From assembly GCA_963815905.1 (NCBI GenBank), contig CAWFIO010000005.1, positions 14,949 through 78,948 on the forward strand: DNA of 64,000 nt, read 5' to 3'. Of the stretch, positions 9,935-58,709 are shown one piece after another (positions within the stretch are counted from its first letter, which is position 1; each line of letters starts with the position of its first letter). The position numbers and the translations under genes were made by a program. Under the pieces are notes generated by a model. The model was given only the letters and a program-made list of their open reading frames with translations. It searched no databases and was not told the DNA's origin. Origin of the DNA: an uncultured Actinomycetota bacterium (GTDB lineage Bacteria; Actinomycetota; Actinomycetes; Propionibacteriales; Propionibacteriaceae).

Positions 9935-10010
9935 ATTTCCCGGCATGTGCCGGCAGACGGCTCCTGAAACGGCCGCGGGTGGGGGCGTTTCCCGGCACGT
10001 GCCGGGAAAC
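9935..10010. repeat. Two related 24-bp palindromes 52 bp apart
   Basis: 9987-10010 gtttcccggcacgtgccgggaaac is a perfect palindrome; 9935-9958 atttcccggcatgtgccggcagac is a degenerate copy. Confidence 0.8.
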
Positions 10011-10043
10011 GGAGAGCCGACGGTCAGGTCGTAGAGTCGGGCC

Positions 10044-47670: not shown

Positions 47671-47728
47671 GCTGAGGCTGGCGGGCGCAGCCCTGGCTTC
47701 GGCTCCGGCTCCGGCTCCCCTATTCAGC

Positions 47729-47783
47729 AACTGGGGGCAGATAACAGAATTTGCGGCGATCGTGCTGTTATCTGCCCCCAGTT
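47729..47783. repeat. REP-like palindrome, copy 1
   Basis: aactgggggcagataacag, 17-nt loop, ctgttatctgcccccagtt (19-bp perfect arms). Confidence 0.92.
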
Positions 47784-47814
47784 AGTTGGGAAACCGCTGA
47801 CGCAGGTCGCCGGT

Positions 47815-48729
47815 TCAGCCGCCGGACCACCGCTGATGGACTCGCCGACGGCCGCTCAGCCCGAGCAGCGAATCATCGAGCAAAGCGTTCCACCGCCGCA
47901 GCCGACGCGGATCCCAGGTCCGACCGAGCGCCCGATCCACCGCAGCGATCAACGTGCCGCCGTCATTGCGTAACTCGACCGAGGTGTAGCCGAAGCGCAG
48001 GGCGCCCTGCTCGGCGATCATGCGTTCGCGACCCAGATCGGACCGATGGACCGCACGGTCGCGGTGGATATCGCCGTCGTACTCGTGAATCCGTGGGGTG
48101 CCCACGATGCCGAGATCGGCATGCGCCACGACCCGGCCGCCCGCATCGATGATCTCCATCTGCGGCTCGACCTGGATGTCCGCTGCCCGGTGCAGGACCC
48201 GCATGATCGATTCCCAAGGCGATCCACTTCGCTCGTCCAGCGTCGGGATGAGTTCACGCAGTCGCCTCACCCCACGACGTCGGTGCGTCGCCGTCTCCTC
48301 GAGTTCGTCGAGCGTCAGTTGCTTCAGACGGAGGGCCGAGTCGCCGAGCACGACCAGGTCGAGCAGCCCGAGATCCCGGCAGGCGGCAAGCAGAGTTTCG
48401 GCGGCAGTGGTCACCGGCAAGCCCATGACCGACGTCGCCGGCACCGAGGACCGGTGCCTCGATAGGACCACCCCGGGCCGTCGCGGGTAGGACCCCGTCT
48501 CTGGCGCGGCGATGAAGATCGGATGGTGCCTGCGCGAGGGCATCCACCATCCGCAGAGCTCCGCTGCGGTCAGGTGTGTAAATGCCGCACCCGCCGGCAA
48601 CAACAGCCGCCAGGCATCCAGGTCGTGCGCCAGGCTTTCTTGTGGAAGTGACGAGCGGTAGAGCCCGTACGTCAGACGCCGCCATTGCGCACCCCTGCGG
48701 TGACCGCGCACCGGGTTACTTGTTCTCAT
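47815..48729 (-). CDS. AbiEi-like N-terminal domain + DUF559/Vsr-like PD-(D/E)xK nuclease-domain protein
   Basis: FTHLTAAELCGW and GLPVTTAAETLL (AbiEi-like); SGSPWES.MR, VEPQ, HADL, HEYDGDIH, DLGRER (DUF559-like). Start chosen at MRTSNP; uncertain. Confidence 0.8.
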   Translation of the reverse strand: MRTSNPVRGHRRGAQWRRLTYGLYRSSLPQESLAHDLDAWRLLLPAGAAFTHLTAAELCGWWMPSRRHHPIFIAAPETGSYPRRPGVVLSRHRSSVPATSVMGLPVTTAAETLLAACRDLGLLDLVVLGDSALRLKQLTLDELEETATHRRRGVRRLRELIPTLDERSGSPWESIMRVLHRAADIQVEPQMEIIDAGGRVVAHADLGIVGTPRIHEYDGDIHRDRAVHRSDLGRERMIAEQGALRFGYTSVELRNDGGTLIAAVDRALGRTWDPRRLRRWNALLDDSLLGLSGRRRVHQRWSGG

Positions 48730-48779
48730 ACAGAAAACATGCTGACGTCGCTCGACTTCGTGCCGCCCTCGTCGGAATC

Positions 48780-48818
48780 TGTGGATAACGGACTTAGCGG
48801 TCGGCGCGCTGTGGACAA
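48780..48818 (-). promoter_or_regulatory. Two DnaA-box-like 9-mers 30 bp apart
   Basis: On the minus strand TTATCCACA (48780-48788) and TTGTCCACA (48810-48818), upstream of the nuclease gene. Confidence 0.55.
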
Positions 48819-48835
48819 CGGCGCCCCCTGCCCCC

Positions 48836-48896
48836 ACTATCTGGGGGCAGATAGCGCAAAACCTGATGGTTTCGACGCAATCTGCCCCCAGATAGT
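48836..48896. repeat. REP-like palindrome, copy 2
   Basis: actatctgggggcagat ... atctgcccccagatagt (17-bp perfect arms, imperfect inner extension). Confidence 0.92.
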
Positions 48897-50887: not shown

Positions 50888-50946
50888 CTAACTGGGGGCA
50901 GATAGCACTGCCGGAGACCCGTCTGCCGCTATCTGCCCCCAGATAG
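50888..50946. repeat. REP-like palindrome, copy 3 (between divergent genes)
   Basis: ctaactgggggcagatagc ... gctatctgcccccagatag (15-bp perfect core arms). Confidence 0.92.
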
Positions 50947-57124: not shown

Positions 57125-57979
57125 ATGCACGAGGATGAGTGGTTGGCCGAGCGCTTCGAGGAACAGCGGAACCACCTGTCGGCGGTCGCGCTTCGGATGC
57201 TGGGATCGCCCGCGGAGGCCGACGACGCGGTCCAGGAGGCATGGCTGCGGCTCAGCCGATCCGACGTCAGCGCGGTCGACAATCTCAGCGGGTGGCTGAC
57301 CACCGTGGTGTCGCGGGTCTGCCTGGACATGCTGCGGACCCGCCGCCGGCGGGGCGAGACCGAGCTCGGGGACCAGATCAGCGAGCCCGTCATCGCTGGG
57401 CCCGAGCACGAGGCGCTACTCGCCGATGCCGTCGGCCCGGCTCTGCAACGGGTCCTCGACAGCCTGGCCCCGGCTGAGCGCATCGCCTTCGTGCTGCACG
57501 ACCTGTTCGCGGTGCCGTTCGACGAGATCGCCGAGATCTTGGGGCGGACGCCGGCCGCTACGCGCCAGCTGGCCAGTCGGGGGCGGCGTCGGATCCAGGG
57601 CGGGGACGCCCCCGGCGATCCCGATCGTGCCCGTCGAGCCGAGATCGTCGCGGCCTTCCTCGACGCCTCCCGCAACGGCAACTTCGCCGGGTTGCTGGCC
57701 ATCCTCCATCCGGGCGTACTCGTCCGGGCCGATGCCACCGCGACGGCGATGGGAGCCGAAGCCGAGATCCGCGGATCCGAGCTGGTGGCCGCGGCGTACA
57801 ACGGCCGGGCCCAGGCGTTGCGCCGCGTGCTCATCAACGGCGAGCCCGGGGCGGTCTGGCAGCTGCGAGGCGAGATCAAGGTGATGTTCGCGTTCACGGT
57901 CCTCGACGGCCTGATCGCCACCGTCGACCTGATCTCCGACCCGGACGCGTTGGCCGCCGCCGAGGTGGACTACCTCTAG
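57125..57979 (+). CDS. ECF sigma-70 factor with C-terminal SnoaL-like domain (ECF41/SigJ-like)
   Basis: EADDAVQEAWLR, WLTTVVSRVCLDMLR, ERIAFVLHDLF, RQLASRGRR; SnoaL-like extension. Confidence 0.9.
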   Translation: MHEDEWLAERFEEQRNHLSAVALRMLGSPAEADDAVQEAWLRLSRSDVSAVDNLSGWLTTVVSRVCLDMLRTRRRRGETELGDQISEPVIAGPEHEALLADAVGPALQRVLDSLAPAERIAFVLHDLFAVPFDEIAEILGRTPAATRQLASRGRRRIQGGDAPGDPDRARRAEIVAAFLDASRNGNFAGLLAILHPGVLVRADATATAMGAEAEIRGSELVAAAYNGRAQALRRVLINGEPGAVWQLRGEIKVMFAFTVLDGLIATVDLISDPDALAAAEVDYL

Positions 57980-57996: not shown

Positions 57997-58073
57997 CCCG
58001 TCGAACTAACTGGGGGCAGATAGCAGTGTTTCGGCCGATGGTTGCGTTATCTGCCCCCAGTTAGTTCGACGGG
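57997..58073. repeat. REP-like palindrome, copy 4 (longest)
   Basis: cccgtcgaactaactgggggcagata / tatctgcccccagttagttcgacggg (26-bp perfect arms). Confidence 0.93.
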
Positions 58074-58123
58074 CGGGGGCGACCGGCAGAGGGCGAAGAG
58101 AGGCGGCGCCCCGGGTCAGGCGC

Positions 58124-58709
58124 TCACGTGCTGAGGCGCGGGGCCCGCGGGCTGCGTTTGTAGTCGGAGACGAAGCGGCTGCCGGCCTCGTGGAAGCGCC
58201 ACGGGCGGTCGGCCTCGACCGAGACCCCGACGCGCGGGCCGACCACGATGGCCGCCGGGCGGTGGGCCGGGCTCGAGCCGCAGCGCACCGCCGGACAGCA
58301 GGTCGGCCCCCTTGTGCTCGGCGTTCAGCCCCAGGGCCTGAGCGAGCCGGCCCGGGCCGCGGGCCAGGTCGCGATCGGTCGAGCGGCCGCGCCGGCTGCG
58401 GGCGAGTTCGAGACCCGCGATCACCTCGCCGGCCCGGAGCAGGACTCCCGATGCGGTCCCGTCGGGTCCGCAGACCACGTTGGCCGCCCAGTGCATGCCG
58501 TAGCTGAAGTAGGTGTAGAGGTGGCCGGGGGGCCCGAACATCGTCTGGTTCCGCGGCGTCGGGCCGCGGAAGGCGTGCGAGGCCGGGTCGCGGGCCCCCG
58601 CGTACGCCTCGACCTCGGTCAGTCGGACAGCGATCTCGCCGTGCCACAGGATCGCACCGAGCAGGGCCGGCGCGACCAGCTCGACCGGGCCGGAGAGGTC
58701 CCAGCTCAC
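58124..58709 (-). CDS. mpg: 3-methyladenine DNA glycosylase (MPG/AAG family); +1 frameshift near 58258
   Basis: [38 protein letters not shown]; the +1 frame gives the expected tail GPRVGVS...PWRF...FVS. Confidence 0.85.

What the first reader, a model, noticed from the sequence alone, without database searches (positions are those of the whole stretch)
47729..48896. AbiEi-like/DUF559 nuclease gene bracketed by two REP-like palindromes: candidate non-RAYT REP-nuclease system
Seen: the gene (47815-48729) has a palindrome 31 bp past its stop and another about 105 bp before its start, and the same arm recurs in solo copies at 50.9 and 58.0 kb. Known: this layout is the hallmark of RAYT (HUH transposase)/REP loci. 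Here the central gene instead has an AbiEi-like N-terminus and a PD-(D/E)xK DUF559/Vsr-like C-terminus, a widespread actinobacterial family of unknown function. Inference: the protein recognises or cuts these hairpins and spreads or maintains them, or they are its operator or a hairpin-guided substrate.
Basis: partly seen in the sequence, partly recalled or inferred. Interest (0 to 1): 0.85.

Follow-up and report, generated by a model that had tools for sequence, protein, structure and literature searches.

The report
Nuclease gene framed by own palindromes
A gene for a DNA-binding nuclease sits between two copies of a palindromic repeat that is also scattered about 54 times through this genome, and seven of its eight sister genes in the genome sit among repeat families of their own (five framed on both sides), so this looks like an actinobacterial counterpart of the REP/RAYT repeat-plus-enzyme partnerships, built on an unrelated enzyme and found in none of the papers searched.

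Summary
Gene 47815-48729 (-) lies between two copies of a palindrome with exact CTGGGGGCAGAT arms and a 27-nt centre. The genome holds 54 intact copies.

The pairing is not chance.
- Nine members of the protein family occur in this genome. Six are bracketed on both sides by their own palindrome family; two more have their own repeats beside them (0.004 bracketed genes expected).
- Orthologs at 81-90% identity in three other organisms keep the same arms on both sides, although the centres have diverged.
- A close relative (pgi 95% identical) has only the two flanking copies, so the 54 copies are a lineage-specific burst.
- Across 79 homolog loci, flanking palindromes are 9-10 times more frequent per side than at control genes, and about 70 times for both sides. 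Arm sequence follows the protein tree.

The protein is under purifying selection (dN/dS 0.09). Its model resembles an AbiEi-like winged helix plus a Vsr/I-Bth0305I-type PD-(D/E)xK nuclease. The genome has no RAYT.

Arms are near-perfect in every copy, while centres drift at fixed length and the two arms do not covary. This suggests dimer binding to two half-sites.

Binding, cutting and mobilisation remain untested. I found no published description.

The parts
47729..47783 (.). Downstream family-A palindrome: AA-CTGGGGGCAGAT-(27 nt)-ATCTGCCCCCAG-TT, ending 31 nt past the stop codon. The weaker outer symmetry reaches about 47712-47800.
   Evidence: The orthologous copy is kept in L006, L007 and L009 with a different centre.
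47815..48729 (-). Gene for a 304-aa protein with an AbiEi-like winged-helix N-terminal half and a Vsr/EDxHD-type PD-(D/E)xK nuclease C-terminal half. D205, E216, D218 and H222 are invariant.
   Evidence: dN/dS is 0.09-0.12. GC3 is 0.78, against 0.88-0.94 in the neighbouring genes.
48779..48785 (-). Proximal TCCACAG box (reads CTGTGGA on the + strand), part of TTATCCACAG on the coding strand.
   Evidence: One or more T[CA]CACA boxes lie upstream of 73 of 78 homolog loci, against 0.025 expected.
48809..48815 (-). Distal TCCACAG box (TTGTCCACAG on the coding strand), 30 nt from the proximal box.
   Evidence: It is conserved in L006, L007 and L009.
48828..48896 (.). Upstream family-A palindrome (core 48841-48891) with an extra outer half-arm, CTGCCCCCA, at 48828-48836. 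It lies about 110 nt before the start codon and 49 nt past the pgi stop codon.
   Evidence: The orthologous copy is kept in L006, L007 and L009.
50892..50942 (.). Solo family-A copy between the divergent genes pgi and the HD-domain dGTPase gene. It is absent from the same intergenic region of the relative G041/L006.
58010..58060 (.). Solo family-A copy between convergent genes. Its pairing extends to about 57997-58073.

Best explanation
The gene and its two flanking palindromes form one conserved unit: palindrome, two TCCACAG boxes, gene, palindrome.

The protein is a site-specific DNA-binding nuclease. It combines an AbiEi-like winged helix with a Vsr/I-Bth0305I-type PD-(D/E)xK domain, and its cognate DNA is the arm sequence of its own palindrome family.

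The most likely mode of action, which is inferred and not shown, is this:
- A dimer binds the two roughly 18-nt arms as independent half-sites at a fixed spacing.
- That places the nuclease domains over or near the unconstrained centre, where they nick or cut.
- This activity maintains the repeats, and in some lineages amplifies them.

The partnership is inherited vertically, like REP/REPIN-RAYT pairs, but the enzyme is unrelated to RAYTs. In this genome family A has expanded from the two ancestral flanking copies to about 54 extragenic copies. Seven other paralogs each have a repeat family of their own.
For: Shown by the analyses:
- One-to-one pairing inside one genome. Nine family members were found.
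  - P1 goes with family A, P2 with B, P3 with F, P5 with D, P6 with C and P8 with G. Each is bracketed on both sides.
  - P4 has a family-E array on one side, and P7 has family-H arms on both sides.
- Unbiased clustering of hairpins gives families A, C, G, B and D as the top families that are not low-complexity.
- Of nine same-family pairs lying 300-4000 nt apart, six enclose a family member.
- By chance 0.004 bracketed paralogs are expected. The maximum was 2 in 200,000 simulations.
- The bracket with the same arms and the same 27-nt spacing is kept in orthologs of 90% and 81% identity, while the centres fall to 41-63% identity.
- G041 (pgi 95% identical) carries family A only at the gene.
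- A dispersed copy in another organism lies at a site that is empty in G000.
- In 79 homolog loci, palindromes occur upstream in 56%, downstream in 37% and on both sides in 20%. At 348 control genes the figures are 6.3%, 3.7% and 0.3%.
- The geometry is constant and arm type follows the protein tree.
- Another family, GAAAGTGGTCAC, is dispersed in G003 and G005.
- The protein is constrained (dN/dS 0.09-0.12) and its catalytic residues are invariant.
- The fold matches Rv2827c (probability 1.0), I-Bth0305I (0.99) and the R2 RLE domain.
- All 54 copies keep their arms, with no decayed copies. Centres are 54% identical to their consensus, against a null of 41%.
- The polymorphic positions of the two arms do not covary.

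From established knowledge, not tested here: AbiEi antitoxins bind inverted repeats in their own promoters through the winged helix.
Against: - No biochemical or expression data exist. Binding, cleavage and mobilisation are inferences from co-location and co-divergence.
- A hydrolytic PD-(D/E)xK nuclease has no obvious way to copy DNA to new sites on its own.
- G041 keeps an intact gene but has had no amplification, so the gene alone does not drive spread.
- Empty-site comparison failed. Intergenic DNA is too diverged or rearranged between G000 and G041, so the insertion chemistry is unknown. No target-site duplication was seen.
- Families E and F are small and were defined only after looking at the flanks.
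- P9 has no detectable repeat.
- The protein itself gets no Pfam, NCBIfam or PDB hit by sequence.
Confidence: 0.6

Rival explanations
1. The palindrome-gene-palindrome unit is itself a slowly moving selfish cassette, with the palindromes as its ends. The solo palindromes are footprints, or non-autonomous derivatives left by recombination between the two ends, in the manner of solo LTRs. They are not elements that are copied on their own.
For: - The cassette layout is the constant feature of the family, whereas dispersal is patchy. G041 has only the two flanking copies.
- GC3 of the gene is lower than that of its neighbours.
- There are many paralogs per genome, at unrelated loci.
- Earlier notes of this scan reached this reading for other genomes (a lead only).
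Against: - The family-A cassette is single-copy and sits in the same place (pgi, gene, Rv1265-like gene) in four organisms.
- No nuclease gene fragments lie next to any of the 52 other A copies.
- dN/dS of 0.09 indicates long-term function.
- Fifty-two clean deletions with no remnant would be needed.
- Two identical family-B copies with different flanks, 3.1 kb apart, show that whole palindromes are duplicated without the gene.
Confidence: 0.2
2. The palindromes are ordinary cis-regulatory DNA. The upstream copy would be an operator for AbiEi-style autorepression and the downstream copy a terminator. The dispersed copies would be a regulon, or structural or terminator sites adopted by the host, and the nuclease domain would play no part in them.
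For: - The N-terminal half has an AbiEi-like fold.
- The upstream copy sits about 106 nt before the start and the downstream copy about 3 nt after the stop across the family.
- About 75% of A copies lie within 100 nt downstream of a stop codon.
- The copies form strong hairpins.
- Every copy keeps perfect arms, as expected for sites under host-level selection.
Against: - Conserved TCCACAG boxes, not the palindrome, occupy the promoter-proximal region.
- Most dispersed copies lie at 3' ends of genes, not in promoters.
- The whole set of 52 extra sites is missing from a relative with 95% pgi identity, which is not how a regulon behaves.
- The catalytic residues are invariant.
- Eight parallel 'regulons' in one genome seem unlikely.
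Confidence: 0.12
3. Chance: the gene merely lies in a stretch rich in REP-like repeats, with five A copies in 17 kb.
For: - There is a local cluster of A copies at C5:62.7-79.3 kb.
- The neighbouring gene pgi is also bracketed.
Against: - By chance 0.004 bracketed paralogs are expected, and six are observed.
- The bracket is conserved in three other organisms, one of which has no other copies.
- Enrichment over control genes holds across the whole family.
Confidence: 0.01

Closest known systems
REP/REPIN-RAYT systems (REPtrons) of Proteobacteria
   Same: - A single-copy, vertically inherited enzyme gene is flanked by its cognate extragenic palindromes.
- The same palindromes are dispersed in tens of copies.
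- Several enzyme-repeat pairs coexist in one genome, each with its own repeat sequence.
- Copy number is specific to the lineage.
- There are no target-site duplications.
   Different: - The enzyme is a wHTH plus PD-(D/E)xK (Vsr/EDxHD-like) nuclease, not an HUH-Y1 transposase. PF01797 is absent from the genome.
- Only the arms are conserved, and the centre drifts at fixed length. In REPINs the whole sequence stays close to a master copy.
- The two arms show no covariation.
- The host is actinobacterial.
AbiEi antitoxins (e.g. Rv2827c, PDB 1zel)
   Same: - The N-terminal winged-helix region gives the best fold match (probability 1.0).
- AbiEi proteins bind inverted repeats near their own gene (from the literature, not tested here).
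   Different: - No AbiEii toxin gene is adjacent; the neighbours are pgi and an Rv1265-like gene.
- The C-terminal half is a nuclease.
- The repeats are dispersed through the genome.
I-Bth0305I (EDxHD homing endonuclease) and the Vsr/DUF559 nucleases
   Same: - The catalytic domain has the same fold (3r3p, probability 0.99, TM 0.63 on the target).
- The E-x-D-G-x-x-H motif is invariant.
- DUF559 gives sub-threshold hits in 14 of 42 homologs.
   Different: - The gene is not inside an intron or intein.
- It is not next to a cytosine methyltransferase.
- Its own locus is stable.
- The target would be a dispersed palindrome family, not a single homing site or a T:G mismatch context.
MITEs
   Same: They are short, non-coding, dispersed elements with terminal inverted repeats that expanded in one lineage.
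   Different: - No target-site duplication was seen.
- No cognate transposase was identified: PF01797 is absent, and other transposase families were not searched.
- The interior is not conserved among copies.

Membership tests
REP/REPIN-RAYT (REPtron) | The associated gene encodes an HUH-Y1 transposase (Y1_Tnp, PF01797) | tested here: not met
   No PF01797 match anywhere in the genome at E<=1, while the control genomes respond. The flanked gene is PD-(D/E)xK-like.
REP/REPIN-RAYT (REPtron) | The gene is flanked by the same palindromic repeats that are dispersed through the genome, mostly outside genes | tested here: met
   there are 54 copies, 52 of them intergenic, and the gene is bracketed.
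REP/REPIN-RAYT (REPtron) | Each enzyme clade has its own repeat sequence, and inheritance is vertical | tested here: met
   Eight paralog-family pairs in G000. Arm type follows the protein tree. Gene order is shared by four organisms.
REP/REPIN-RAYT (REPtron) | A conserved GTAG (or CGTC) tag at the 5' end of each REP | tested here: inconclusive
   The arms are followed by TTAGT or ATAGT, which resembles GTAG but is not identical to it. Nothing is known about function.
DUF559 / Vsr-like PD-(D/E)xK nucleases (PF04480) | A match to the Pfam model above the curated cut-off | tested here: not met
   No hit for the window protein even at E<=10. Fourteen of 42 homologs hit only below threshold (best E 0.0045).
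DUF559 / Vsr-like PD-(D/E)xK nucleases (PF04480) | Vsr/EDxHD catalytic fold with conserved acidic and His residues | tested here: met
   Model pLDDT is 91.6. Foldseek gives 3r3p at probability 0.99 and R2 RLE at 0.97. D205, E216, D218 and H222 are invariant.
AbiE type IV toxin-antitoxin (AbiEi antitoxin) | An adjacent AbiEii nucleotidyltransferase toxin gene | tested here: not met
   The neighbours are pgi and an Rv1265-like gene in G000 and L006.
AbiE type IV toxin-antitoxin (AbiEi antitoxin) | An N-terminal winged helix of the AbiEi type | tested here: met
   Foldseek's top hit is 1zel (Rv2827c), E 2.7e-3, probability 1.0. No Pfam AbiEi hit was obtained.
MITE | Target-site duplication flanking the terminal inverted repeats | tested here: not met
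   No direct repeats of 3-5 nt at any offset from 0 to 15 in 47 copies.
Homing endonuclease gene | The gene is inserted within its own recognition site, or within an intron or intein, with presence/absence polymorphism of the gene | tested here: not met
   The gene lies between two complete palindromes at a syntenic locus in four organisms.

The most novel reading that the evidence does not exclude
These wHTH-Vsr-like nucleases are the engine of a second, independent class of REP-type genomic replicators.

A hydrolytic nuclease dimer reads two duplex half-sites and cuts in the free centre. Host repair of that break both propagates the palindrome and keeps its arms perfect. In effect it would be a sequence-specific short-patch repair or gene-conversion system that protects and spreads its own binding sites.

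This would account for three observations together:
- all 54 copies have flawless arms;
- the centres evolve about neutrally but never change length;
- the copies are absent from a sister genome.
Probability: 0.25. Interest if true: 0.9.

Novelty: new variant of a known kind. Interest (0 to 1): 0.8.

Why it matters
REP elements and their RAYT genes are the only well-described case of a persistent, vertically inherited partnership between an enzyme and a repeat in bacterial chromosomes. RAYTs are essentially a proteobacterial story.

Here the same genomic logic appears in Actinobacteria with an unrelated enzyme class. Eight pairs sit in parallel in one 3.85-Mb genome, and a sister genome carries the unexpanded state.

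If the nuclease really reads its own arms, three things follow:
- It gives a function to a large and abundant family of 'DUF559 / endonuclease domain-containing' proteins.
- It explains where actinobacterial extragenic palindromes come from.
- It offers a natural series of proteins and 18-nt DNA sites that have diverged together, usable for studying or engineering DNA recognition.

It also gives a directly testable case of how repeat arms stay perfect while the interior drifts.

Tried and rejected
- Rfam: no family matches the palindromes. The only hit in the window is a tRNA.
- Sequence searches of the protein itself against Pfam, NCBIfam and PDB gave nothing. A profile search against PDB also gave nothing.
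No paralog has a family-A copy within 30 kb. This led to the finding that each paralog has a different arm.
- The exact A element is absent from 40 relatives. Only one further metagenome contig carries it.
- The family GAAACCGGTCAC was not found among the sampled relatives, apart from one related copy in G011.
- Empty-site reconstruction failed. The pgi-dGTPase intergenic region cannot be aligned between G000 and G041. The 58-kb site is rearranged in G041.
- Hairpin covariation: positions 13/39, 14/38 and 16/36 pair no more often than under independence. Covariation within an arm is weak (p=0.02-0.2). A selected long stem is therefore not supported.
- Hypermutation of the centre is not needed. 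Centre divergence from its consensus is about 0.7 substitutions per site, which fits the saturated intergenic divergence since the split from G041. It does exceed dS/2 of the coding genes, so the point stays inconclusive.
- Target-site duplications: none.
- The genome search on L006 failed because the record is not held; I used L022/G041 instead.
Full report
**1. Observation**

The minus-strand ORF 48729-47815 encodes 304 aa. It lies between two copies of a palindrome whose arms are exactly CTGGGGGCAGAT / ATCTGCCCCCAG, separated by 27 nt. The cores are at 47731-47781 and 48841-48891. Two more copies lie at 50892-50942 and 58010-58060.

The window holds eight arm matches against 0.31 expected. 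The window is C5:14949-78948 of a 3.85-Mb genome with 69.5% G+C.

- *Copy number.* The genome carries 54 intact copies, and 53 measure exactly 51 nt between arm ends. nhmmer finds nothing between the intact copies (47-69 bits) and noise (9.7 bits), so there are no decayed relics.
- *Position.* Fifty-two copies are intergenic, and about three quarters lie within 100 nt downstream of a stop codon.
- *Extent of the palindrome.* Conservation runs outward to cACTA[A/T] and inward to R-R-C-R. A weaker C-run/G-run about 11-17 nt outside makes the whole symmetric unit about 85 nt.
- *Target-site duplication.* None was seen.

**2. The protein**

Sequence searches of this protein against Pfam, NCBIfam and PDB find nothing. 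Its 393 detected homologs also carry no precomputed Pfam domain, although JGI and UniRef name some of them 'very-short-patch-repair endonuclease' or 'DUF559'. Scanned one by one, 14 of 42 homologs give sub-threshold DUF559 hits and 4 give REase_MTES_1575 hits.

An AlphaFold2 model built on 42 sequences is confident (pLDDT 91.6, pTM 0.89). Its best matches among solved structures are:
- Rv2827c, an AbiEi-type winged-helix protein (probability 1.0);
- the catalytic domain of the homing endonuclease I-Bth0305I (probability 0.99, TM 0.63 on the target);
- the restriction-like endonuclease domain of R2 retrotransposons.

D205, E216, D218 and H222 are invariant. dN/dS is 0.09 against the 90% ortholog and 0.12 against the 81% ortholog.

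**3. Is the bracketing chance? The test inside this genome**

None of the paralogs found by tblastn has a family-A copy within 30 kb. Looking at their flanks, however, showed that each has its own palindrome.

An HMM of the family finds nine members among the six-frame ORFs. Their repeats are as follows:

| Paralog | Position | Repeat family | Family size and arrangement |
|---|---|---|---|
| P1 | this gene | A | 54 copies; both sides |
| P2 | C13:44196 | B, AGTGTCGGATAACGACGC | 10 palindromes; both sides |
| P6 | C8:237242 | C, GGTTTCCCATG... | 21; both sides, mirrored |
| P5 | C13:280299 | D, GTTTCCCGGCA | 19; both sides |
| P8 | C13:~378340 | G, CTGAAAATCGACGTCCAGT | 20; both sides |
| P3 | C21:84562 | F, TGCGGAC... 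| small family; both sides |
| P4 | C13:300953 | E | array on one side |
| P7 | C9:60023 | H, GACTGGCGCYGGATTYTCAGC | 14 arms genome-wide; an arm on each side |
| P9 | C8:501757 | none | weak family member |

An unbiased clustering of all hairpins in the genome returns A, C, G, B and D as the top families that are not low-complexity. Of the nine same-family pairs lying 300-4000 nt apart, six enclose a family member.

With repeats dealt at random among about 3,000 intergenic regions, 0.004 bracketed paralogs are expected. The most seen in 200,000 simulations was two. Chance is excluded. The genome has no RAYT.

**4. Across genomes**

- *Orthologs.* The relative G041 (also fetched as L006 and L022) has the ortholog at 90% identity in the same gene order: HD-dGTPase, pgi, the gene, an Rv1265-like gene, DUF218. 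It has the A palindrome on both sides, again with a 27-nt centre, but the centres are only 63% and 41% identical to ours. Two metagenome orthologs at 81% identity show the same arrangement.
- *A sister genome without the burst.* G041 is close (pgi 95% identical; dS 0.39-0.70). It carries family A only as those two flanking copies; the other near-matches are at control level. The flanking copies are therefore the ancestral state, and the 52 others are a burst in the lineage of this genome.
- *Independent insertion.* A dispersed copy from the organism of L007 lies at a site that is empty in G000. Insertion has thus happened independently.
- *No ortholog, no element.* The 24 sampled genomes of the same genus have neither the A element nor an ortholog above 56% identity.
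- *Homolog loci.* Their 50-56% homologs, and 79 scorable homolog loci from Propionibacteriaceae, Nocardioidaceae and Geodermatophilaceae, carry other palindromes.
  - A palindrome of score 11 or more occurs upstream in 56%, downstream in 37% and on both sides in 20%.
  - At 348 control genes in the same loci the figures are 6.3%, 3.7% and 0.3%.
- *Geometry.* It is constant. The upstream copy ends a median of 106 nt before the start, the downstream copy begins a median of 3 nt after the stop, and total length is mostly 55-63 nt.
- *Arm type follows the protein tree.* Examples are:
  - AACTGTCGNCAGATTGCATC in one clade;
  - AGTGTCGGAT in the P2 clade;
  - GAAACCGGTCACT, AAGTGGTC and AACCGCT... 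in others;
  - our clade next to AAACTGGCGACAGAT.
- *Dispersal elsewhere.* GAAAGTGGTCAC is dispersed in G003 (11 arms, 4 of them at the gene) and in G005 (9 arms), with none in the controls.

**5. What the repeat anatomy says about mechanism**

- Arms are virtually invariant in all copies and across species. The centre retains only residual homology: 54% identity to a consensus...GTCGAAACCGGCCGCGGAGGCG..., against a null of 41%. Its length does not change.
- The polymorphic inner positions vary only by transitions, and independently in the two arms. Watson-Crick pairs are no more frequent than under independence.
- That argues against selection for a long stem. It favours two half-sites read separately at fixed spacing, as a dimeric DNA-binding protein would read them.
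- Whole elements, centre included, can be duplicated. Two identical B copies with different flanks lie 3.1 kb apart.
- Centre divergence is compatible with neutral drift since the split from G041, because intergenic DNA between the two genomes cannot be aligned. It exceeds half the coding dS, so faster evolution of the centre cannot be excluded.

**6. A further conserved part**

Between the upstream palindrome and the start codon lie two direct TCCACAG boxes about 30 nt apart (48779-48785 and 48809-48815). At least one T[CA]CACA box is present upstream of 73 of 78 homolog loci, and two or more in 38, whatever the arm type. The expected count is 0.025 per region. They resemble actinobacterial DnaA boxes (TTGTCCACA, from general knowledge). 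Their role is unknown.

**7. Interpretation**

Shown here:
- a conserved cassette of palindrome, boxes, gene and palindrome;
- one-to-one pairing of protein clades with repeat families;
- amplification specific to one lineage;
- strong constraint on the arms and on the protein.

Inferred:
- the winged helix reads the arms, by analogy with AbiEi and from the co-divergence;
- the nuclease acts at or near the centre;
- this activity maintains or spreads the repeats.

The rival readings are a self-moving cassette with solo footprints, a purely regulatory role, and chance. They are weighed in their own section of this report; chance is excluded.

**8. Novelty**

Full-text searches for DUF559 together with 'palindromic', for DUF559 alone, and for REP/RAYT with actinobacteria found no description of this arrangement. 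The review of tagged REPs notes that some REP super-families lack a dedicated enzyme (PMC3733652).

Earlier notes of this scan report the same cassette in at least 38 other genomes. I saw them after reaching the same reading, and they are leads, not independent evidence.

This window adds three things:
- eight pairs within one genome, which serve as an internal control;
- the sister genome with only the two ancestral copies;
- the evidence that the arms are read as half-sites.

The logic is that of REP/RAYT, but the enzyme and probably the chemistry differ, so I class it as a new variant of a known kind.

**Limits**

No clean empty sites were recovered. No biochemistry exists.

Noticed in passing
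window 48779-48785 and 48809-48815; loci L022-L101, upstream of the gene: Two direct TCCACAG boxes (TTATCCACAG and TTGTCCACAG, resembling DnaA boxes) lie about 30 nt apart between the upstream palindrome and the start codon. At least one T[CA]CACA box lies upstream of 73 of 78 homolog loci (two or more in 38), whatever the palindrome arm sequence, against 0.025 expected.
   Followed up: partly
G000 C9:195432-198668 (outside the window): Two family-B palindromes that are identical, centre included, but have different flanks. They bracket 3.1 kb carrying a 736-aa protein that looks like a PLD-helicase (defence-like) plus a 108-aa ORF. This may be a repeat-flanked mobile segment or a recent local copy.
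   Followed up: partly
window 9936-10011: Copies of another dispersed repeat family, D (ATTTCCCGGCAtgTGCCGG and GTTTCCCGGCAcgTGCCGGGAAAC). Its cognate nuclease paralog lies at C13:280299-281039.
   Followed up: partly
G000 C13:588001-588042, C23:99778-99940, C8:260007-260104; C11:119960, C13:753716, C16:4825: Two further small hairpin families, GTGTGGGGGG-N4-CCCCCCACAC (about 9 loci) and AAACGGCCC arrays (about 6 loci), for which no associated gene was found.
   Followed up: no
window 47815-48729; L006 5716-6630: Automatic gene calls shorten this gene to 242 aa in the window's genome (P0003) and 209 aa in G041 (P0004). Both genomes have the full 304-aa frame, which aligns end to end with homologs.
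   Followed up: yes
G000 C18:25371 and C19:21471; C17:10478 and C18:6: Pairs of A copies that are exact reverse complements of each other, on different small contigs. These are probably assembly duplicates or contig ends breaking at the repeat, so the true copy number may be 52-53.
   Followed up: no
window 58075-58137 compared with G041 C1:3615358 (L104): Gene order between G000 and G041 breaks next to the solo A copy at 58 kb. The upstream gene, 57125-57979, has a different neighbour in G041.
   Followed up: partly
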